From the NCBI GenBank assembly GCA_015660885.1, contig JACTUB010000004.1, forward strand, positions 62,070 to 126,069: a DNA stretch of 64,000 bases, given 5' to 3'. Source of the stretch: Methanoregulaceae archaeon. Its GTDB lineage: Archaea > Halobacteriota > Methanomicrobia > Methanomicrobiales > Methanospirillaceae. Shown here in pieces: positions 6,811 through 17,249 of the stretch. The position numbers and the translations under genes are program-made. The notes under the pieces were generated by a model that searched no databases, had not been told where the DNA came from, and was given only the letters and a program-made list of their open reading frames with translations. Position 1 is the first letter of the stretch, and each line of letters begins with the position of its first letter.

Positions 6811-7143
6811 TTACTTCTTTTTTCCCATCTTTTCCAGGACCCTGTTCTTGTTCATCTCTGCTTCAACATGTGATGGATAGATCTGGAGAACTTTATCAAA
6901 TTTTGATACTGCTTCCGGATACCGCCCAAGCTTTTCATAGCAGCGTCCCATTTCACAATACGCTAAAGCAAACTTCGGTGCCAACATAACTGCAGTACTG
7001 AGATTTTTAAGAGCTGATTCATGGTTTCCTTTACCTGACATTTCCAATGCACAGCGGTAGAGGGTTATTGCTTCCAAGGGAATCTGGCGAAATGAGTCCA
7101 TTTTTTCACCCAGCTTTTCAAATTGTTTCCGTTCATATGGCAA
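6811..7143 (-). CDS. Small TPR-repeat protein
   Basis: About two TPR units (AYCEMGRCYEKLGRYPEAVSKFDKVLQIYPSHVEA). Confidence 0.85.
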   Translation of the reverse strand: MPYERKQFEKLGEKMDSFRQIPLEAITLYRCALEMSGKGNHESALKNLSTAVMLAPKFALAYCEMGRCYEKLGRYPEAVSKFDKVLQIYPSHVEAEMNKNRVLEKMGKKK

Positions 7144-7243
7144 GAGATGGTATAAGTTAAATTTTATAAATATTTCGAAATTAATCTATAAGATCATAAT
7201 GCAGGGAAATACATCGGCATTCGTACTAAATTTTTAGCACATT

Positions 7244-7579
7244 TCACTCATGGATCATCGTCAGTATCATCTTAGACCGTTGCTGTGCATGAAGGGCATG
7301 GGGTTTGTTGGCCGGCATGACGATCATCTGCCCTGCCTTAAGTAGGAACTGATTCTTTTCGATCGAGATCTCCATCTCACCATCAACGATCATGGCAATC
7401 GCATCGAACGGCGCAGTGTGTTCTGACAGCCCTTCACCGGCATCAAACGCAAAGAGCGTGATAGTGCCGCTTTTTTTATAGACCAGCATCCGGCTCACTA
7501 CCGAACCGTCCTGGTACGCGATGAGGTCCCTGGGATCCAGGATTTGTCCCGCAAGGTTTTCGTGTTTCTTCTCTGGCAT
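7244..7579 (-). CDS. Cupin-domain protein
   Basis: FAFDAGEGLSEHTAP and MPANKPHALHA cupin motifs. Confidence 0.9.
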   Translation of the reverse strand: MPEKKHENLAGQILDPRDLIAYQDGSVVSRMLVYKKSGTITLFAFDAGEGLSEHTAPFDAIAMIVDGEMEISIEKNQFLLKAGQMIVMPANKPHALHAQQRSKMILTMIHE

Positions 7580-8600
7580 AGGATCACCACTGAATAATTT
7601 TTAGTTCCGGGTACTCTTATAGTGAATGCCTTCTTTCTGATTCTTCCTGAGGAGAACCTCCCTTTTTTTGACGAGATAACAGATAGGGATACGAATTCTG
7701 GTACACGGCAACGAAACTTACTGAAGATGAGTTTTTGCATTTTTCACGAGGTATGGAGACAACATGGAAAAAGGGGAGATTGCGCGTGGCAGAGATAGTG
7801 AAACTCAGTCCAAGGTTACCCGAGGGGGTAATAGCCGCCCTGTACTCGTTCTGACCCAGGTACACTCCCTGCTCAAAACAGGGGACCTTGCAATCCTGTA
7901 CCATTCACCTGTTTTTTCCCGATTGGAACGAGTATTTTCCTTAAAATACATGATTATTACGATATTTTCCTCGGGTGCTGACACAATCCTGACAGAACCA
8001 AAAAAACAAGATTGCCCGATTGGCAAACGGAGCCCGGATTGGGCTTATCGGGGATCGTGTCCTTTAAGGCTGGGAAATCTGTTGTTCTTCCCGCGATCCG
8101 GAGAAACAAATATTTACAAAACAGGGATTCTTTCTCATCATCGGCATATATGGGTGATCAGCTCTGAGTTTTGCCAACTAAACTGCACCAAACAGGCTCA
8201 TTTTAATCAACAAATGACCGTATTTTTCCCAGAGAACCGCAATATTGACTCAGTTCGGAAACAATGATCTTCATTCGTCATTTTTTGCATCAACTTCTGA
8301 TTTTTTTGAGATCCGATCGCTTGGTTTGCCAATCGGAGCCAGAAATGAACTTGAATAGGGAGTGTTATAAATCTAAGGTGAAAACAGGTAGTTTTCCTTG
8401 TGAGGGAATATAACCGGATCCGGGAAACTTTATAAAAATTTTATTGCAGCAATCCATTCATTACCTCTGAATTATTGTTTTCAGGCTAAAAAAATCTTGA
8501 ACTTGGATACGTGTCACCGAGCCTGACTCTTGCCGGCTAGTTTTTATCTGTTATCTAAAAAAAACCGAATCAGTCGATGAATCCTCAGGGTTCCTGGATA

Positions 8601-9641
8601 CTATTTCTCCATCTCCAATGCCTTTGCCCACGTCTCTATAGCCCAGCGGGCAAGATCCTCGGGTATTTTATGGTTTTCCATCAATCGTTTCCTCAGTCTG
8701 GCTGAAGTATTGACCCACCGGAATCCCTGGTGAGACTTCAATAATTCCTGGGGAATGTTATCCTTCAGGGCAATAACCAGAACATTTCGTTCATATGCAT
8801 ATTCACCGTGGGACAATTCGTTGAGCAATGCTGCCACTTTATCCGGTTCGTCAAGAATAGAAAGCCCGGATCCATTCATCACGCCGCACAGACTCGCTAA
8901 GGTATGTAATCTGCTTTCTTCGGGAATTGTTCCAAAATAAAGTTTCTTCTCTTCAGGTTTCTTCTCTCCGCCTTTGAGCTGCGCAGGTTTCTTCTTGCCA
9001 GGTTGTTTGTTAAACAGGTTCTGAGGTTTTGTGTACCATAGCACAGCACCGATAATGATAATCACGAGGAGAATAAGCATCCCGATGGTTGTCGGGTTGA
9101 ACCGGCTCTGTTTCGTAAGGGCAATTTCCCGGTTTTCCCGTGCTGTGGTATAATTTGGCTGGAGGGCAATCACCTTGTCATACGAGGCGATCTCCTCATC
9201 ATACCGCCCGAGATAATCCAGCGCGACACCGCGGTTGAGCCACGCTTCGGCATACACCGGACTGATGGCAATCGCTTTGTCATACGAAAGAATCGCATCT
9301 GCATACCTGCCGAGTTTTCGCAACGCGATGCCGCGGTTGTACCACGCTTCTGCGAACCCCGGTTGGAGGGTAACTGCCCTGTCATACGAGTTGACCGCCT
9401 CTGAATATTGTCCAAGGTTGTCCAGGGCAACGCCGCGGTTGTTCCACGCATCGGCATTGGTCGGACGGATAAAAACCGCCTTGTCATATGCAGCGACGGC
9501 CTCAGCAAACCGGCCTTGTTTACTGAGATTAATCCCGTCACCATAATACTGATCAGCCAGGTCAACCGCGGTTACCAGGGGGACTATGAGCAGGAGAAGA
9601 AGAAAAATTCCCACGGATATTCCGGACCTGCTCACAGCCAT
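8601..9641 (-). CDS. Signal peptide + TPR repeats + TM helix + cytosolic helical domain
   Basis: Hydrophobic N-terminus; four to five TPRs (AWNNRG/AWYNRG/AWLNRG); TM segment IGMLILLVIIIIGAVLWY; ~120 aa C-terminal domain. Confidence 0.85.
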   Translation of the reverse strand: MAVSRSGISVGIFLLLLLIVPLVTAVDLADQYYGDGINLSKQGRFAEAVAAYDKAVFIRPTNADAWNNRGVALDNLGQYSEAVNSYDRAVTLQPGFAEAWYNRGIALRKLGRYADAILSYDKAIAISPVYAEAWLNRGVALDYLGRYDEEIASYDKVIALQPNYTTARENREIALTKQSRFNPTTIGMLILLVIIIIGAVLWYTKPQNLFNKQPGKKKPAQLKGGEKKPEEKKLYFGTIPEESRLHTLASLCGVMNGSGLSILDEPDKVAALLNELSHGEYAYERNVLVIALKDNIPQELLKSHQGFRWVNTSARLRKRLMENHKIPEDLARWAIETWAKALEMEK

Positions 9642-9889
9642 ACCACGTATGTATTCGCTATCCGGTTAATCACTATTTTGATTCAAACCGGAAATTCTGC
9701 AGCATTTACGAAATGTATCATCCTGACAACCTGACTGACCAGAACCTTCTCTGTTATGAATTGCAGGGAATGAATAAAGAAAACTGTTCAATATGATAAA
9801 AAAATCGCCGTAATCAGGAATTCGTACCAATGATGAGGGAAAAAATCAGGATCAACAAAAACCCGGTTTTCATCTTCCCGCTTTCGTCA

Positions 9890-10996
9890 TCACGGGATTT
9901 CCCGGGCCGGATCAAGCAGTATCTCGTGGGGAAGCCCGGTAAGGGCAACCGCTCCCAGAGCACCAATTACGCCATCTCCCCCGTGCAGCGTTATACCGAA
10001 CCTCTCCGCAGTCGCATCGGCTACCGCCCGGGTGATCAGCTGGGTCCGGACACGTCTCCCGTACTCCCTCAGCCCTTCGGGAATTTCGAGCCCGGTCCGG
10101 ATCGCAATTCCCCACTCGTGGGATAACGACTCCCCGGCCACAAACCGCAGCGTTTTTTCCTCAAGATCAGTGTAACTCTCAGGTGAGACGGCCACTTCGA
10201 TGAAACTGGAGGAATTCCCGGCGGTTTTCAAAAATACATCCGGGTTGAGCATCGCTACATGGTGGCTGATCGGCAGAACACCTTTGATCCGGGTGACATG
10301 CGAGAGGAGAGCCAGGGCAAGGGCAAATGTCGCGCCTCCTTCCTTTGAATCAGTATCATCAATGCCAATGGTCACATGCATCAGCGCCCGGGTACGCACA
10401 TCGCCTTCCACGATTTCACCGGCATGCCGGGTCCTGACCTGCATCACCCCTTCCGCACGCGCCATCATATCGGACAACGAGTATGCCGGGCCACCGATGC
10501 AGCGGATGTGCTGGACAACCGTATCCCCGTCCTTTTCAATGCCTGTAACACCGACAGCCGGAAGGGGCGAGAGCCCGACCGGAACCTCACGGGAGCCGAT
10601 CCGGGCACATTCCCGCAGCAGTGTCCCGTCACGCTGCACGCTCACCAGGACACCACCTGCCAGTGCATGATGGTACCCGCAGAAAGCGGCACAAGCTCCG
10701 CTCATGCAGTCATGGTATATCTCGACATTATCTCCATCGATGGTCGTGAAGATCCGCCGGCAGGCACTCGACGGCATTGCGCTGATCGCCACGTAGTGCG
10801 CCGCACTTCTCCCGCGTTTCTCCTCGCGTAAAAGTACGCATCCCTCAGTGAGGAGCCGGTTCACCCAGTCCTGTGCGGTACTGCGGGGAAGGCCGGTTGC
10901 ATGAAAGAGGTCGGTGACGGTAAAAAAACCATTATCGAGCGTGAACTGTCGCATCAGGCGCAGGTATTCGCGCCGTCGCTCAAGTACGCTGGACAT
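9890..10996 (-). CDS. Winged-HTH fused to a methanogenesis marker 11 / TiaS-FLD-like domain
   Basis: N-terminal HTH (FTVTDLFHATGLPRSTAQDWVNRL); Cys/His-rich segment; VTIGIDDTDSKEGGATF motif; overlaps the hom stop codon. Confidence 0.7.
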   Translation of the reverse strand: MSSVLERRREYLRLMRQFTLDNGFFTVTDLFHATGLPRSTAQDWVNRLLTEGCVLLREEKRGRSAAHYVAISAMPSSACRRIFTTIDGDNVEIYHDCMSGACAAFCGYHHALAGGVLVSVQRDGTLLRECARIGSREVPVGLSPLPAVGVTGIEKDGDTVVQHIRCIGGPAYSLSDMMARAEGVMQVRTRHAGEIVEGDVRTRALMHVTIGIDDTDSKEGGATFALALALLSHVTRIKGVLPISHHVAMLNPDVFLKTAGNSSSFIEVAVSPESYTDLEEKTLRFVAGESLSHEWGIAIRTGLEIPEGLREYGRRVRTQLITRAVADATAERFGITLHGGDGVIGALGAVALTGLPHEILLDPAREIP

Positions 10997-11969
10997 AACG
11001 GTCCTGGATGAACAGCAGGTCGCCGATGATGGCGCTTGCTGTCTCGGTGGATCCGGCCCCCCTGCCGATCAGGGTGATCTCCTTTGCCATATCCGTTTCA
11101 AGGGTAAGTGCGTTCAGTGTCCCGTCAACCACCAGTGGGTGGTTCTTTTCAAGGATCCGGGGCGAAACACGGAGTATATGTTTACGGGGAATCGCTTCGG
11201 CAATCAGCCGGATGGTACACCCTTCATCCTCTGCCAGCCGTAATGCATCGGGAGTCAGGAGATCGATGCCAGTACGATCGACGTCATTCAACCCTATGCT
11301 GTTCCCCCAGATAGTATTTGCAAGGATCACGAGCTTGATCGCCGCGTCTATTCCCTGTACGTCATAGGTGGGATCCGCCTCCGCATATCCCATCTCGCGG
11401 GCTTCCATCAATGCCTGCTCGTAGGTAAGTCCTTCATCCGCCATACGGGTGAGAATGTAGTTGCAGGTACCGTTCAGCACGCCATAGAGCGCAAGGATCT
11501 CGTTGCCGGCAAGCCCGTGTTCCAGGGTATGCATGACGGGAACTGCACCCGCTACGGTTGCTTCGTACCGCAGGGCCACGCCGTTTTTAAGTGCCAGTGC
11601 ATGAAGTTCCTTGTAGGCAAGGGCGATTGGTCCTTTATTTGAGGTTACCACGTGTTTCTTCCGTATCAGGGCTGTTTTGATATACCCGATGGCAGGTTCT
11701 CCGGTAAGAGCATTGGTGGGGGTCACTTCGACGAGAGCATCGTAATCCGCTTTTTTTATCACATCGGCAGCGGATATTTCCCGGTCGCCGCAGTAGCCGT
11801 TCCTGCTCTTGTTTAAGAGGAGGTTTGCAATGTCAAGTCCGTCAGGTTCCACGCATCCGCTTTTCGAATCGGCAATCCCGGTAATCGTAATACCGAGATC
11901 TTTTCGTGCAATCACCCCGGCGACCCCTTTACCTACCGAACCCAGGCCTATTAACGCAACCTTCATCAT
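10980..11969 (-). CDS. hom: Homoserine dehydrogenase
   Basis: IGLGSVG Rossmann motif; VVTSNKGP, YEATVAG, GVLNGTCNYIL, EADPTYDVQGIDAAIK motifs. Confidence 0.97.
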   Translation of the reverse strand: MMKVALIGLGSVGKGVAGVIARKDLGITITGIADSKSGCVEPDGLDIANLLLNKSRNGYCGDREISAADVIKKADYDALVEVTPTNALTGEPAIGYIKTALIRKKHVVTSNKGPIALAYKELHALALKNGVALRYEATVAGAVPVMHTLEHGLAGNEILALYGVLNGTCNYILTRMADEGLTYEQALMEAREMGYAEADPTYDVQGIDAAIKLVILANTIWGNSIGLNDVDRTGIDLLTPDALRLAEDEGCTIRLIAEAIPRKHILRVSPRILEKNHPLVVDGTLNALTLETDMAKEITLIGRGAGSTETASAIIGDLLFIQDRYVQRT

Positions 11970-12469
11970 GCAATCTCCTCGAGAGGTTCAATCAGGAGCA
12001 GGGACTTCTGGATGGATACCCGGCGGAGAATTGCAAGCGCTGCTTCCATGTCATGCTTGCTTACCGCTTTAATAGTTATCCGTGAAGTAGATCGCTCGTG
12101 CACCGCTGGCATGCTCATCGCGAGTTCACAGACTTCTGCAAAGCCGGTAGAGTCAATCTGGTCAACGGTATCGGAGAGATCGGTGTGCATCAGATGCCCG
12201 ATCAGGATTACCGTCCTTTTATAAAGAAGCCGTTCCTCACCGATCCGCTGGATGTGCACTCCCTGTTCCTTGAGAAGCGCTACGAGTCGTTCGAGGCGCC
12301 CTTCCGGCAAATCGAGCACGATCTGCACGTTTAGGGTATCATCATCCAGATCGGGTTCACGCTGGTGAATGACCGCGATGATATTCCCCCCTACTTCAGA
12401 CATGGGTTTGAGGGCAGCAACCAGCTGACCCGGAGAATCCTTCATCTCAAGTTTCATGGAAACCTGCAC
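11966..12469 (-). CDS. ACT-domain amino-acid-binding protein (probable Hom regulator)
   Basis: MKDSPGQL...GGNIIAVIH ACT motif; 4-bp overlap with hom. Confidence 0.88.
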   Translation of the reverse strand: MQVSMKLEMKDSPGQLVAALKPMSEVGGNIIAVIHQREPDLDDDTLNVQIVLDLPEGRLERLVALLKEQGVHIQRIGEERLLYKRTVILIGHLMHTDLSDTVDQIDSTGFAEVCELAMSMPAVHERSTSRITIKAVSKHDMEAALAILRRVSIQKSLLLIEPLEEIA

Positions 12470-12683
12470 GAGACCACCTGTCCAGTAGTAGATCGGCTTT
12501 CAAGATAAGTCTTTTATTTTGAAGATCCGGAGAAACTCTGGTACCATGATCATGGTACTTGAATATCCTGCTGGATTCTGTCCAACGGTATGGGTATAGG
12601 AACAAGAACAGGGATATATGGGATGGGAGAAACCTTTTTTCACGTAGGTTTTTCGCAGCCTTCCCAAAAGCTGTCGCATCACG

Positions 12684-12871
12684 GGGGATCCCCCGGCAGC
12701 TGGGGCAATAAAATTGCCGGAGACGTCAAAAAAGTGACCATTTAATAAAACATTACTTTCCCGGAAAATTATAGTATGCACGGGCTCACCCGCCTCAGGG
12801 CCTCACCGGGGCAACGCGGGGCTGGGAGGTTTTCACCGATCCGCCGCGGGGGCACCCGTCAGGGGTGGCGG
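12684..12871. repeat. Dispersed structured intergenic repeat, copy A
   Basis: 12704-12762 matches 15219-15276 at 49 of 59 positions; second shared block CACYGATCCGCCGCG; GGCAAT/ATTGCC dyad. Confidence 0.75.
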
Positions 12872-13049
12872 TGGTTATCTTATTTGGGGAGAGTGAGGTA
12901 CCAATCCCATATCATATCTGAATAACATGATTTTCACGATTCAGGAACAAACTCTTTGTTCATGTGGGTTTCTCCAGAACTTTGGAACATGAAAAATTGG
13001 TAATTGAAATGGTATTTCTATACCCTGAAATACCAAAAAAAATGATTTT

Positions 13050-13871
13050 TCAAAGCTTCCGGAGTTTTTTATCCACCTTCTCAAAGAAATTACGTTTAAC
13101 GTCGACAAAGAGCGCCGGATATTCAGACCGTCTCACTCCAATTGTCATTGAGGATCCCACGCCGATCGTCTTCTGGCCATCGATAACGAGATGGGCAGGT
13201 TTTGCACTATCCAGTTTGATTTCAAGGTGGCGGTCGCTGCTTATCAGATGAGGGCGGGATGACAACATGTACGGGGCGAGTGGAACCAGTAAAAATCCCT
13301 GGATTCGTGGGTCAACGATAGGTCCTCCTGCACTCATTGCATAGGCGGTAGAACCGGTCGGCGTACTGATCAACAGGCCATCAGCACGGAACTCCTCGGT
13401 CGTGATGTTATCAACAAGAATGGAAAATTTCAGCATCTTTGCCGGTCGGGTGGTCACTATTAACCCTTCATTCAGTGCATTTCCCAGGCAGGTGTCACCA
13501 TTGGACAGCATGATTCTCATCCGTTCTTCAACGGAAAAACCCAAAGGCAGGTTTTGTATAAATTCCAGTGCCTCAGAAGGTTCAAGATCCGCAAGAAAAC
13601 CAACCTCGCCCCAGTTGACGCCAAGTACCGGGATGGGGCGGGGCATCTGCTGGATCGCGCGGAGGATAGTGCCGTCTCCCCCGATCGCAATGACAATCTC
13701 CTCGTTCGCATCTGCGAAAGAACAGCCGGGTAGCCCCAGAGCGATAGCTGTATCGCGGTCGTATACTACATCGGATCCTTCTTTTTCAAGAACCGTTCTG
13801 ACTTTCTCAGCAAATGCAAGCGCATCCCGGTTGTCAATCCGCGAAACAAGCAGTATCCTCATAATAATCAC
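13050..13871 (-). CDS. nadK: NAD(+) kinase
   Basis: [21 protein letters not shown] and [21 protein letters not shown] motifs. Confidence 0.96.
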
Positions 13872-14644
13872 CGCAGGTACTCGATTACCTTATGGTGGAG
13901 TACCCCGTTTGTGGCAACGAGACACCGCCCGATTGTCACCTCATTCGGAAACCGGATCCCCTTACCTTCGAGATCCGAAACTATCCCGCCTGCTTCAGTA
14001 CACACAAGCATCCCGGCAGCAGCATCGGTCACTCTCAGCGTTCCCCGGAGATCGATAAAACCGTCAATCCTCCCGCAGCCGATATAACAAAGTTCCAGAG
14101 CAGAGGCCCCCAGCAGACGCCACCGTCGGATCTTCTGCCCGAGCTGCATCATACGGGTGGGATCAAATTTTCTTCCGTAGACGCTCATTGCAGATTCATC
14201 CAGCTGGGAGACATCCGATACCCTGATGGGTTTGTTGTCGCACCGCGCGTATTTCCCCTTTATGGCCGTGAATGTTTCTCCACTTGCCAGGTTGCGAATG
14301 AATGCCTGCTGCACAACCCCATGCTCAGCATAGGCAATGGAAAGTGCATAGAAGGGTATCCCTGCAAGGGCATTGAACGTCCCGTCCACCGGATCAAGAA
14401 AGATGGTGCCACCGTTTCCCTGGAATTTAACCTTTCCGGCCTCTTCACTCACCAGGAGGGAGCAGAGGTGATGCTCCTGTAAAAAAGAGATAATACAATC
14501 CTCTGCCACCTGATCTATCTTTTTTGTCGGGGTGAGATCCGCACCCATCTTCACCGTCACACCTCCTTCAGGTGTTCCCGTAAGATCGCGGATACTCTCT
14601 TCTACCAGTTCTGCCATCTGATTGCATGCAGTAATAAATTCCAT
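13868..14644 (-). CDS. suhB: Inositol-monophosphatase/FBPase family phosphatase (possibly NADP phosphatase)
   Basis: [12 protein letters not shown] and DAAAG motifs; 4-bp overlap with nadK. Confidence 0.88.
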
Positions 14645-14741
14645 GCCCCGGACTTCCCTTTTCTACGCTGTATTTATGTAATGCAATAGTGATAAATTAC
14701 TACCGCGTTTACGATATGTGGTTATTCCAGGTGTGAATGAA

Positions 14742-15119
14742 ATGAAAGAGCAGACCGAAATAGGGAAGATAAAAGAGGGACGCTATATTGTAATCGAAGA
14801 CGAGCCGTGCAGGGTGCTCGGTATTGCCACATCTAAGCCGGGGAAGCATGGTGCTGCAAAAGCACGGATTGATGCTGTAGGAATCTTTGACGGCGTGAAA
14901 CGATCTATCGTCCAGCCGGTATCGGCAAAGGCATACATTCCGGTTGTTGAACGTAAGAGCGGCCAGGTTATCTCGATTGCCGGGAATACGGCACAGTTGA
15001 TGGACATGAAAGACTTTTCAAACTTTGAAATTCCCATACCCGAGGACAGGAAAGCCCATGTAGAGGTGGGTAAAGAGATCGTGTATATTGAATCCATGGG
15101 AAAGAGAAAGATCGATTAA
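14742..15119 (+). CDS. eif5A: Translation factor aIF5A
   Basis: SKPGKHGAAK hypusination motif; start set at ATG 14742 after an AGGTGTGA Shine-Dalgarno-like sequence. Confidence 0.96.
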   Translation: MKEQTEIGKIKEGRYIVIEDEPCRVLGIATSKPGKHGAAKARIDAVGIFDGVKRSIVQPVSAKAYIPVVERKSGQVISIAGNTAQLMDMKDFSNFEIPIPEDRKAHVEVGKEIVYIESMGKRKID

Positions 15120-15191
15120 GTAAAAACTGGCGTCGGCAGAAACCTTTTTTTCATATAATTTTTTCGCCAAAAGATACTAAATCGTATTATT

Positions 15192-15396
15192 GGGGATGTT
15201 CCAGCAGCGGGGGCTAAAGGCAATAAATTGCCGGAGACCTCGAAAAAGCCTCCATTCAATCAAACGGTACTTTCCCATGAAAGCCATCGCATTTATGAGA
15301 ACTGCCCGCCATTGGGATTCTCTGAGGCACGGCGGGGCACGGGATTTTTTAGAATTTTAGTCACTGATCCGCCGCGAGGGCGCCCTGTCGGCGGGC
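15192..15396. repeat. Dispersed structured intergenic repeat, copy B
   Basis: Same-orientation diverged copy of 12684-12871. Confidence 0.75.
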
Positions 15397-15636
15397 ATTC
15401 ATCGTTAACGGAGACAGGGACTCTTTCGTTAAATCTGGAATACTACTATTTTCACGATGTAGATGCAAATTTTTTGTTCATGAGAGTTTTTTCAGGAGCC
15501 GAAAAATAAAATTATTTTATAAAAGATCTGTTCAATTTTTTCTCTGGCCCTGTCAACCGGCAATGGGTGGTATTCTCTGCAGTTGAAACTACCTTCAAGG
15601 TATAGTCTGATATCAGCTTTTCAGGAAAATGCAAAA

Positions 15637-16407
15637 TTAGTATGTCCCGATATATTTTGTCGGGACCCTGATATCGATGCTGTACGAGTTAAGCGACTCC
15701 GATGTGATGGTAAAATAATAACTTCGATGTCCCTCGTAGAATTTTTCAGTCCACGGCCGGGGATCGTTAGTCCCCTCCCACAGGTTCAGGTTAATCCCAC
15801 CCGGGGGACTGATCGTTCGGACGATACGATTGGGATCAGTGGCATCGATCACCTGGAGGGTAAAATCAGGAATCACGCCGGAATAGGAGCCCTGTACACC
15901 ACTATATGATATTCCCTCTCCCTGTGTCGAAATAACCTGAAGTGAACCCGGTTCCGCTGCTGGTACGGGATCAACGGTGTAGACGAGCTCCCAGTAGGGG
16001 AAGGGAATTTTTATGATCTGGGTCGTCCCGCTGTATTTTCCGGAAATTTTGGCATAGGAAGTCATGCTGGTGTCCACAGGATTGGTGTCAAACCGGGTTC
16101 CATTCGGGAAAGTATCGCCAAATGTTACGCCATAGGATGACGGATTGACAAATCCTATTGTTATGACATTCTTGTCCCACGTGGGAACTGGTGTCGGGAC
16201 AGGTGTTGACAGGGAAGTCTTTGGGATTACTACAAGAGTCACCGTGTCTGCAGGGGATGGGGTAACATGGATTGTGGATTGCGGAGTCGCAGCTACGGGA
16301 AGACCTGTATTGAGGGGTTTGCCGGTTACCATCGGTTTTATGACAAGGGCCACAACAAGGATAATGACCAGTGCACCCACCGCATACATGACAGATTTTT
16401 TGTCCAT
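15637..16407 (-). CDS. Membrane-anchored exported hypothetical protein (paralog of 47667-48320)
   Basis: MDKK + TM helix, Pro/Thr linker (TPVPTPVPT), GTTQIIKIPFPYW motif; start set at ATG 16407. Confidence 0.75.
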   Translation of the reverse strand: MDKKSVMYAVGALVIILVVALVIKPMVTGKPLNTGLPVAATPQSTIHVTPSPADTVTLVVIPKTSLSTPVPTPVPTWDKNVITIGFVNPSSYGVTFGDTFPNGTRFDTNPVDTSMTSYAKISGKYSGTTQIIKIPFPYWELVYTVDPVPAAEPGSLQVISTQGEGISYSGVQGSYSGVIPDFTLQVIDATDPNRIVRTISPPGGINLNLWEGTNDPRPWTEKFYEGHRSYYFTITSESLNSYSIDIRVPTKYIGTY

Positions 16408-16610
16408 GGTAGAAGTGGTAAAAGTATGTTGGTTTCTTACCATAAATACTGCATACGCATGTGAGAATAAGCGGAAAGACAAAAATTTATCATCTGAAAT
16501 ATGAATAGTTCACGATGGTGGCGAAAGTTCGGTCGGGTTTTTTCCCATGATTTCGAGAATTTTCGCTGAAAAAACCTCAAAAACCAGATCAAAAGAAGGC
16601 ACGAAAGAGG

Positions 16611-16622
16611 AAAATATTTATA
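16611..16622 (+). promoter_or_regulatory. Putative BRE/TATA of the first archaellin gene
   Basis: AAAATATTTATA preceded by a purine run, ~70 nt upstream of the ATG. Confidence 0.5.
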
Positions 16623-16691
16623 TTACAAAATCAATTTAAGAAACAGGGACGGTGGAATCCCATTGTCCTCTCAGTGTATGAAGGTTGAAGT

Positions 16692-17249
16692 ATGAAATCC
16701 ATGAAACGTAATGATGAAGGGTTCACCGGCCTAGAGGCAGCGATTGTGCTTATCGCATTCGTTGTCGTCGCGGCGGTGTTCTCATATGTCGTACTCGGCG
16801 CCGGGTTCTTTACAACCCAGAAAGCCCAGGAGACGGTTTACAAAGGTGTTGAACAATCGACTGCAAACATCCAGATGATAGGGAACGTCTATGGACTCTC
16901 CACAGATAATAATTCCATTACCAGTATCACATTCGTTATTGGTCTTGCTCCCGGTGCGTCGGCACTTGATTTGACCAAGATGAACATTGTCTTCTCCACG
17001 CCAGCCACTGCCCCGATCATTCTCAATCAGACTACAGGAAGTGCATCCACGACTTCATTCACCACTATGATTGGTACTACCCATGTCACTTCAATAAATC
17101 CCAACGATCAGGTAGAGATCCTATTCAATACAGCCGCGGTATCAGCGAATACCAGAATGACTATTGAGTTGAGACCATCTGTTGGGGCTGCTTTACCCTT
17201 CTCAAAGACGGCTCCTGCAACGATTGCTAATACGAATGTTCTCTATTAA
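16692..17249 (+). CDS. arlB: Archaellin (copy 1)
   Basis: Class III signal peptide ...NDEG|FTGLEAAIVLIAFVVVAAVFSY; NNS and NQT sequons. Confidence 0.95.
   Translation: MKSMKRNDEGFTGLEAAIVLIAFVVVAAVFSYVVLGAGFFTTQKAQETVYKGVEQSTANIQMIGNVYGLSTDNNSITSITFVIGLAPGASALDLTKMNIVFSTPATAPIILNQTTGSASTTSFTTMIGTTHVTSINPNDQVEILFNTAAVSANTRMTIELRPSVGAALPFSKTAPATIANTNVLY

What the first reader, a model, noticed from the sequence alone, without database searches (positions are those of the whole stretch)
9890..12469. HTH fused to an Mmp11/TiaS-like domain, co-transcribed with homoserine dehydrogenase
Seen: ACT gene, hom and this 368-aa gene overlap in series (4 and 17 nt). The protein has an N-terminal wHTH, a DCMSGACAAFCGYHH cluster and a GIDDTD motif. 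Established: GIDDTD marks the TiaS (agmatidine synthase) catalytic region and methanogenesis marker protein 11, whose function is unknown. Inference: a ligand- or metal-sensing regulator, or enzyme-regulator, tied to aspartate-family amino acid synthesis. It could give a functional clue for Mmp11.
Basis: partly seen in the sequence, partly recalled or inferred. Interest (0 to 1): 0.55.

Follow-up and report, generated by a model that had tools for sequence, protein, structure and literature searches.

The report
HTH-fused marker-11 paralogue after hom
The last gene of a methanogen's homoserine dehydrogenase operon encodes a DNA-binding-type domain fused to a relative of the unexplained "methanogenesis marker 11" enzymes. 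It is most likely an ATP- and metal-binding regulator, but nothing about it has been tested at the bench.

Summary
On the minus strand of this Methanoregula window, an ACT gene (11966-12469), hom (10980-11969) and a 368-aa gene (9890-10996) overlap by 4 and 17 nt.

The 368-aa protein has three parts:
- a winged helix (residues 1-75);
- a marker-11-type N-domain with no clear match among solved folds (76-204), carrying an invariant Cys3-His set (C79, H95, C97, C106);
- a TiaS-type kinase domain, TCKD (205-365; Z 19.9 to PDB 3amt), with the DDTD motif and T223 intact.

It is neither the canonical marker 11 nor TiaS. The genome encodes both elsewhere, and the protein scores 111.8 bits against a 255.8-bit cut-off. 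It belongs to a separate, small paralogue clade.

That clade was found in all sampled Methanomicrobiales and Methanocellales and in Ca. Syntrophoarchaeum, but not in the sampled Methanosarcinales-like families. ACT-hom-X order is kept in Methanomicrobiales, one uncultured Methanocellales family and Syntrophoarchaeum. It is not kept in Methanocella or in deeper family members.

A CTTATC element about 40 nt upstream of the ACT start is conserved across the order and is not the generic TATA box.

My best reading is an enzyme-derived regulator that binds ATP and a metal. DNA binding, ligand and metal are all untested. RefSeq's "TrmB sugar regulator" label is not supported.

This scan noted the same family before on other genomes (e1-2639173, e1-4053035).

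The parts
12470..12526 (-). Conserved promoter block of the operon. It holds an A-rich TATA-like run (12511-12520), a CTTATC element (12504-12509) and the Shine-Dalgarno GGTGG (12474-12478).
   Evidence: These are the only intergenic bases conserved among close Methanoregula relatives. CTTATC lies at -39 to -49 (twice at -59) in 19 of 22 other Methanomicrobiales loci and 58 of 71 Methanoregula loci, against 0 of 88 and 4 of 284 control windows. It is not enriched in generic promoters of this genome. The 11-mer AAAGRCTTATC occurs only twice in the genome.
11966..12469 (-). ACT-domain protein, 167 aa, first cistron (GTG start)
   Evidence: Weak ACT and threonine-deaminase C-terminal hits. It is adjacent to hom in every lineage checked, including those without the third gene.
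10980..11969 (-). Homoserine dehydrogenase (hom), 329 aa, no fused ACT domain
   Evidence: NF004912 at 434.1 bits (cut-off 373) and PF00742 at 198 bits. It overlaps ACT by 4 nt.
9890..10996 (-). 368-aa wHTH-Mmp11-like protein ('X'), third cistron
   Evidence: AF2 model with pLDDT 89.2 and pTM 0.78.
10772..10996 (-). Winged helix-turn-helix, residues 1-75. Recognition helix PRSTxQDW.NR, wing G62-R63.
   Evidence: VIA-align Z 9-11 to IdeR, MarR, IclR and similar folds. R38, T40, Q42, D43, W44 and R47 are invariant in 26 orthologues. Most are kept in distant members.
10385..10771 (-). Mmp11-type N-domain, residues 76-204, built from two beta-beta-alpha-beta-beta units
   Evidence: TIGR03280 covers it. 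Folded alone it gives pLDDT 92.3. Best PDB matches reach only Z 5.6 and Foldseek E 0.04.
10679..10762 (-). Candidate Cys3-His metal site: C79, H95, C97, C106 (plus C102 in most members)
   Evidence: Invariant in A1 and in the wider A4 set. Not present as a set in canonical Mmp11 or paralogue B. The model's secondary structure places them at the open end of a hairpin and the first turns of the next helix. No coordinates were available to measure distances.
9902..10384 (-). TiaS-type kinase domain (TCKD), residues 205-365. GIDDTD is at 10349-10366, T223 at 10328-10330, and there is a KTAGN motif.
   Evidence: VIA-align Z 19.9, rmsd 2.1 A over 153 residues to 3amt_A; Foldseek E 1.8e-9 to 3u02. 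A profile search gives E 1.2e-16 to 3u02. D213, D214, T215, D216 and T223 are shared with the genome's own TiaS and Mmp11 proteins.

Best explanation
X is a one-component-type regulator built from an enzyme. Its winged helix binds DNA. Its sensor is a complete Mmp11-type module: an N-domain holding a Cys3-His metal site, and a TiaS-type kinase domain that still binds, and perhaps still turns over, ATP-Mg. In Methanomicrobiales it is translated as the third, translationally coupled cistron of the ACT-hom operon. It most likely feeds back on that operon's promoter, where a lineage-wide CTTATC element lies beside the TATA region. This would set the flow from aspartate semialdehyde to homoserine and threonine in response to a nucleotide-dependent, thiol or metal signal. 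Shown: gene order, domain folds, conserved residues, phyletic spread and the conserved promoter element. Inferred: DNA binding, autoregulation, ATP binding, metal binding and the nature of the signal.
For: The wHTH fold has an invariant recognition helix and wing over orthologues at 33-90% identity. All TCKD nucleotide and Mg motifs that TiaS shares are kept. The Cys3-His set is invariant and specific to this clade. ACT-hom-X with overlapping stop and start codons is found in 30 of 30 loci from six Methanomicrobiales families, plus an uncultured Methanocellales family and Ca. Syntrophoarchaeum. ACT-hom exists as a pair without X elsewhere, so X was added to an existing enzyme pair, as local regulators often are. 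Deep family members are mostly single genes in varied contexts, which is typical of regulators. The promoter element is conserved across the order, non-generic and unique to this promoter in the genome.
Against: There is no experimental data, and no paper on Mmp11 or this family was found. The CTTATC element may simply be this promoter's own BRE/TATA. It is absent upstream of ACT in the two non-Methanomicrobiales lineages that keep the synteny, and no shared motif was seen upstream of X in Methanocella or deeper members. An invariant recognition helix predicts a conserved operator, and none was found. A fully intact catalytic motif set is more than a passive sensor needs. Winged helices also bind RNA or proteins.
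Confidence: 0.45

Rival explanations
1. X is mainly an enzyme: an ATP-dependent kinase or amide-forming ligase of the TiaS/Mmp11 type. It would act on a homoserine- or threonine-derived small molecule, and the winged helix would serve dimerisation or partner binding. A BirA- or RbkR-like double role as enzyme and repressor is the milder form of this rival.
For: DDTD, T223 and KTAGN are all invariant. In the KT.GN motif X is closer to TiaS than canonical Mmp11 is. It is translationally coupled to a metabolic enzyme. The canonical paralogues sit in the coenzyme B precursor operon and look like enzymes. Canonical thrB is missing in the lineages that keep the hom link.
Against: The iPGM-like 'proposed homoserine kinase' TIGR02535 is present here (517.8 bits). 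It is also present in the X-less, thrB-less families f7 and f8, so no homoserine kinase gap needs filling. Methanocella has thrB, TIGR02535 and X together, with X unlinked to hom. The near-invariance of the HTH recognition helix is hard to explain for a non-nucleic-acid role.
Confidence: 0.25
2. X is a protein-level regulatory subunit of the ACT-Hom enzyme. It would adjust homoserine dehydrogenase activity in response to ATP or redox state, with no role at DNA.
For: The 17-nt overlap suggests coupled, stoichiometric synthesis. Here Hom lacks its own fused ACT domain and depends on separate partners. Some distant members lie next to thioredoxin reductase or thioredoxin, and the conserved cysteines hint at redox control.
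Against: X persists without hom linkage in Methanocella and deeper lineages. The ACT-hom pair works without X in Methanosarcinales-like families. No complex prediction could be run.
Confidence: 0.12
3. X is an RNA-modifying enzyme related to TiaS. The winged helix and N-domain would replace TiaS's FLD, OB and zinc-ribbon domains as the RNA-binding parts.
For: The only characterised TCKD acts on tRNA C34 and is described as a kinase domain with dual RNA and protein specificity (PMC11938285). SelB-type RNA-binding winged helices are among the fold matches (Z 8.6-9.9). Several deep members neighbour RNA methyltransferase or tRNA synthetase genes.
Against: The Mmp11 relatives show metabolic gene contexts. 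The hom operon context gives no RNA link. Neighbourhoods of the deep members vary and may be chance.
Confidence: 0.06

Closest known systems
Methanogenesis marker protein 11 (NCBIfam TIGR03280; function unknown)
   Same: The same two-domain body, covering model positions 4-287 of 292. It has a duplicated beta-beta-alpha-beta-beta N-domain plus a TCKD, with DDTD, GAT and the C-terminal G..GA motifs shared.
   Different: X scores 111.8 bits against a 255.8 cut-off. It carries an extra 75-residue wHTH. It has a Cys3-His set that marker 11 lacks, GGPAY in place of the GGGGV loop, and KTAGN in place of T.NCV. It forms a separate clade in the tree. The phyletic pattern also differs: X is absent from the sampled Methanosarcinales-like families and present in Ca. 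Syntrophoarchaeum and an uncultured Methanocellales family, which have no above-cut-off marker 11. The canonical gene lies on another contig in the ftr-Mmp11b-Mmp11-radical SAM-IorA-like-aksA-hacAB cluster.
TiaS, tRNA(Ile2) 2-agmatinylcytidine synthetase (PDB 3amt, 3amu, 3u02, 5xob)
   Same: The TCKD fold (Z 19.9, rmsd 2.1 A, 25% identity over 153 residues). It shares GIDDTD, the threonine aligned with the first T of TiaS's CTTY, and KT.GN.
   Different: X has no FLD, OB or zinc-ribbon domains. It scores 43.8 bits against a 600 cut-off. The genome has its own TiaS (412.6 bits) on contig C25.
Enzyme-derived or enzyme-fused HTH regulators (BirA, NadR, archaeal RbkR) - comparison from general knowledge
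   Same: An N-terminal HTH is joined to a nucleotide-using enzyme module, and the gene is encoded with the pathway it may control.
   Different: No TCKD or Mmp11-type module is known in that role. Neither activity has been shown for X.
TrmB family sugar-specific regulators (the current RefSeq name for many orthologues)
   Same: A weak similarity of the wHTH only (PF01978 at 19.2 bits, below the 25.6 threshold).
   Different: There is no TrmB effector-binding domain, and the rest of the protein is Mmp11-like. The database name is an over-annotation.

Membership tests
Methanogenesis marker protein 11 (TIGR03280) | Scores at or above the curated cut-off of 255.8 bits | tested here: not met
   111.8 bits. 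The genome's canonical copy scores 326.6 bits.
Methanogenesis marker protein 11 (TIGR03280) | Full-length two-domain architecture | tested here: met
   Model positions 4-287 of 292 align to residues 81-357.
Methanogenesis marker protein 11 (TIGR03280) | Present in methanogens generally and only in them (the model's own description, from memory) | tested here: not met
   X is found in 0 of 43 and 0 of 52 genomes in two large families that do carry canonical Mmp11. It is present in Ca. Syntrophoarchaeum.
Methanogenesis marker protein 11 (TIGR03280) | Groups inside the canonical clade | tested here: not met
   The canonical, paralogue B and X groups form three separate clades. X has SH-aLRT 80 and canonical has 95, from a quick tree of 34 rows.
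TiaS (NF040849) | TCKD catalytic fold with the DDxD motif and the conserved threonine | tested here: met
   Z 19.9 to 3amt_A. D213, D214, D216 and T223 align.
TiaS (NF040849) | FLD, OB and zinc-ribbon tRNA-binding domains; score at or above 600 bits | tested here: not met
   The protein ends right after the TCKD, and the score is 43.8 bits.
TrmB sugar-specific regulators (PF01978 plus TrmB effector domain) | HTH above the Pfam threshold and a TrmB effector-binding domain | tested here: not met
   19.2 bits against 25.6, and no effector-domain hit.
Winged-helix one-component transcription regulators | wHTH fold with a conserved recognition helix and wing | tested here: met
Winged-helix one-component transcription regulators | Sequence-specific DNA binding that responds to a ligand | not testable with these tools
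   There is only an indirect hint, the conserved CTTATC promoter element.

The most novel reading that the evidence does not exclude
X is a still-active TiaS-type kinase working as a transcription factor. It would read the pool of a threonine-pathway or coenzyme B-pathway metabolite by phosphorylating that metabolite, or itself at T223. The Cys3-His centre would add thiol or redox input. X would thereby match ACT-hom expression to the demand for threonine in coenzyme B (7-mercaptoheptanoyl-threonine phosphate). Identifying its ligand would give the first substrate clue for the whole Mmp11 family.
Probability: 0.12. Interest if true: 0.75.

Novelty: new variant of a known kind. Interest (0 to 1): 0.5.

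Why it matters
Marker 11 is one of the methanogen-specific proteins that, as far as my literature searches reach, still has no assigned function. The last steps of coenzyme B synthesis, which join threonine to 7-mercaptoheptanoate and then phosphorylate it, have no assigned enzymes as far as I know. X is a soluble, single-chain paralogue with a built-in read-out (DNA binding), an obvious candidate target (its own operon promoter) and a metabolic context (threonine supply). That could make it an easier experimental entry into what TCKD/Mmp11 modules bind than the canonical enzymes. If X is only a local repressor of hom, it is a modest addition to archaeal regulation. It would also correct a widespread 'TrmB sugar regulator' mis-annotation.

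Tried and rejected
- **Palindrome.** The 18-bp perfect palindrome GTACCATGATCATGGTAC (12541-12558) looked like an operator. It is absent, allowing up to 5 mismatches, from all 99 related upstream regions, so I rejected it.
- **CTTATC as the generic TATA.** Rejected. Generic promoters in this genome are enriched for TATATA and TTTATA, while CTTATC occurs 3 times against 2.6 expected.
- **A regulon marked by AAAGRCTTATC.** The only other genomic copy lies at the 3' end of a gene.
- **A shared motif upstream of X in Methanocella and deeper members.** None was seen by eye or by hexamer search.
- **X as the missing homoserine kinase.** Not supported by the phyletic patterns.
- **Rfam scan of 7000-17000.** Nothing relevant.
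- **Known fold for the middle domain.** The best VIA match is Z 5.6 (KipI N-domain). ArgR C-domain gives Z about 5, and Foldseek gives E 0.04 (Legionella lpg1496 N-domain). All are within noise.
- **ESM Atlas.** No usable hit.
- **Literature.** Nine searches found no paper on Mmp11 or this fusion.
Full report
**What is there**

The window lies in a Methanoregula genome (G000, contig C33). Three genes run in series on the minus strand:
- a 167-aa ACT-domain gene, 11966-12469, with a GTG start;
- hom, 10980-11969, 329 aa (NF004912 at 434 bits);
- a 368-aa gene, 9890-10996, called X here.

The junctions are an ATGA overlap of 4 nt and a 17-nt overlap. The first ATG of X is the real start. Its first 16 residues are conserved in orthologues down to 40% identity.

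**Anatomy of X**

X scores 111.8 bits against the marker-11 model TIGR03280. That is far below the 255.8 cut-off, but the match covers the model almost end to end, over residues 81-357. Pfam TiaS_TCKD passes its threshold (31.4 against 27). All HTH models are below threshold.

An AlphaFold2 model from 26 orthologues is confident (pLDDT 89.2, pTM 0.78). Residues 205-365 superpose on the TiaS kinase domain: VIA-align gives Z 19.9, rmsd 2.1 A over 153 residues to 3amt_A, and Foldseek gives E 1.8e-9 to 3u02. Residues 1-75 form a winged helix, with Z 9-11 to IdeR, MarR and IclR types.

I folded the middle domain on its own (pLDDT 92.3). It is a tandem of two beta-beta-alpha-beta-beta units. It has no convincing solved relative: the best matches are Z 5.6 and Foldseek E 0.04.

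**Conserved residues**

In 26 orthologues, and again when six distant full-length members at 33-40% identity are added, these stay invariant:
- the recognition helix (P37, T40, D43, W44, R47, with R38 and Q42 invariant in the closer set) and the wing (G62);
- C79, H95, C97 and C106;
- D213, D214, T215 and D216;
- A222 and T223;
- T258, G260 and N261;
- G342, G345 and A346.

The DDTD motif and T223 align with the genome's own TiaS and with both Mmp11 paralogues.

T223 falls on the first T of TiaS's CTTY. From memory (Terasaka et al. 2011), that is the autophosphorylated Thr18. I could not check the numbering here. [quoted passage not shown]

The Cys3-His set is specific to X. Canonical Mmp11 keeps one cysteine in this stretch and paralogue B at most one. 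The secondary structure puts the four residues at the open end of the first hairpin and the start of the following helix, which is a plausible metal site. I had no coordinates to measure it.

**X is a third paralogue, not marker 11 or TiaS**

The genome also encodes:
- canonical Mmp11 on C30 (326.6 bits);
- an adjacent paralogue B (180.7 bits);
- TiaS on C25 (412.6 bits).

In a quick maximum-likelihood tree, the canonical, paralogue B and X groups form three separate clades.

A search of 1.84 billion representative proteins found only about ten full-length clusters at the 50% identity level, so the family is small. RefSeq names its members 'sugar-specific transcriptional regulator TrmB', 'DUF1743 domain-containing' or 'hypothetical'. 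The TrmB name is not supported.

**Distribution**

X was found full-length in the following groups:
- every Methanomicrobiales genome sampled (53 of 53 across six families, beyond the window's own genome);
- Methanocella and relatives (10 of 10);
- an uncultured Methanocellales family (4 of 4);
- Ca. Syntrophoarchaeum / Syntropharchaeales (2 of 2);
- one Halobacteriota MAG.

It was not found in several large families of the phylum (0 of 43, 0 of 52, 0 of 22, 0 of 39). Two of these (f7, f8) do carry canonical Mmp11. Conversely, the uncultured Methanocellales family and Syntrophoarchaeum have X but no above-cut-off Mmp11.

**The hom linkage**

ACT-hom-X is intact in 30 of 30 loci from six Methanomicrobiales families. 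It is also intact in the uncultured Methanocellales family and in Syntrophoarchaeum, at 41-45% identity. Of 116 fetched loci, 100 show both neighbours. I did not itemise the remaining 16; they include Methanocella-type loci and contig ends.

The linkage is missing in other members of the family:
- **Methanocella.** X lies beside a beta-propeller protein, UbiA and polyprenyl synthase genes. In three species it follows a SufS-like cysteine desulfurase.
- **Six deeper family members, none next to hom.** One sits in mtrH-Mmp14-X-aminotransferase beside the mtr operon. One lies next to thioredoxin reductase and one near thioredoxin. Three are single genes among housekeeping genes.

ACT-hom is an adjacent pair even where X is absent or elsewhere. 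So X was added to an older two-gene unit within one sub-clade.

**Promoter**

Among close Methanoregula relatives, only the last 57 bp or so before the ACT start are conserved. Across the whole order, a CTTATC core recurs, usually as (G)TAAAAGGCTTATC, at about -40 to -49:
- 19 of 22 non-Methanoregula loci, against 0 of 88 control windows;
- 58 of 71 Methanoregula loci, against 4 of 284 control windows.

Generic promoters of this genome use TATATA or TTTATA, and CTTATC is not enriched in them. The extended 11-mer occurs only here and at one gene's 3' end.

This could be an operator next to the TATA box, or it could be this promoter's own unusual BRE/TATA. It is absent in the two non-Methanomicrobiales lineages with the same synteny, and I found no common motif upstream of X elsewhere. 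That counts against a simple conserved-operator model.

**Is X the missing homoserine kinase?**

Canonical thrB is absent here (best hit 43 bits). The iPGM-like 'proposed homoserine kinase' TIGR02535 is present at 517.8 bits. Across 60 genomes of the phylum, thrB is also missing in families that lack X, while TIGR02535 is nearly universal. Methanocella has thrB, TIGR02535 and X together. No gap requires X.

**Clue to Mmp11**

In this genome the canonical pair lies in the following cluster: ftr, Mmp11b, Mmp11, a LipS2/BioB-like radical SAM, an IorA-like protein, an aksA-like gene, hacA, hacB, and an XcbA-like gene.

The cluster is kept across Methanomicrobiales. Parts of it persist in other orders, with Mmp11 next to the IorA-like gene and/or the radical SAM gene, and aksA nearby in Methanocella.

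The aks and hac genes make the 2-oxosuberate precursor of coenzyme B, which is 7-mercaptoheptanoyl-threonine phosphate (general knowledge). I reached this lead independently. I then found that earlier agents of this scan had reported it (e1-2459815, e1-2611049, e1-5478633), and that X itself had been followed up on another genome with the same reading (e1-2639173).

Threonine is the only bridge between the two loci. It is an inference, not a result.

**Verdict**

My ranking is:
- an enzyme-derived, ATP- and metal-binding winged-helix regulator attached to the ACT-hom operon (0.45);
- an active enzyme or enzyme-repressor (0.25);
- a protein-level Hom regulator (0.12);
- an RNA-modifying enzyme (0.06).

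The remainder is unassigned. X is a new architectural variant of a known kind, conserved and untested, and of moderate interest.

Noticed in passing
window 12541-12558: A perfect 18-bp palindrome, GTACCATGATCATGGTAC, lies about 70 bp upstream of the ACT start. It is absent from all related upstream regions examined, so it appears to be private to this genome among those compared.
   Followed up: yes
window 12790-12870 (inside the 580-bp nadK-ACT spacer): A GC-rich segment (…GCCCCGGTGAGGCCCTGAGGCGGG…) has look-alikes at the same place in only some close relatives (L061, L063). This suggests a small mobile or structured repeat.
   Followed up: partly
G000 contig C30:23800-32450 (locus L140): The canonical Mmp11 and its paralogue B head a cluster with a radical SAM gene, an IorA-like gene, aksA-like, hacA, hacB and an XcbA-like gene. 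The core is conserved in other orders. These are candidates for late coenzyme B synthesis steps.
   Followed up: partly
G000 whole genome; C30:148144-149283: There is no GHMP-type thrB in this genome or in any sampled Methanomicrobiales. The iPGM-like 'proposed homoserine kinase' TIGR02535 is present instead.
   Followed up: yes
L158:2563-7459 and L159 (GCA_054798745.1, GCA_054798865.1): A distant X homologue (36% identity) overlaps methanogenesis marker 14 (DUF2114) by 14 nt. The operon is mtrH-Mmp14-X-acetylornithine-aminotransferase-family, convergent with mtrEDCBAFG.
   Followed up: partly
G043, G054 (uncultured Methanocellales) and G070 (Ca. Syntrophoarchaeum): These genomes carry X and TiaS but no above-cut-off canonical marker 11. 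X therefore does not depend on the canonical paralogue.
   Followed up: no
G028:C1:463295-463771, G033:C6:30611-31075 and similar: A further TCKD-only paralogue of about 240-260 aa exists in several Methanomicrobiales and Methanocella genomes. Its function is unknown.
   Followed up: no
L047:6127-7308: In Methanocella paludicola, M. conradii and a related MAG, X directly follows a SufS-like cysteine desulfurase gene, with a 43-nt gap in M. paludicola. This is of interest given X's conserved cysteines.
   Followed up: partly
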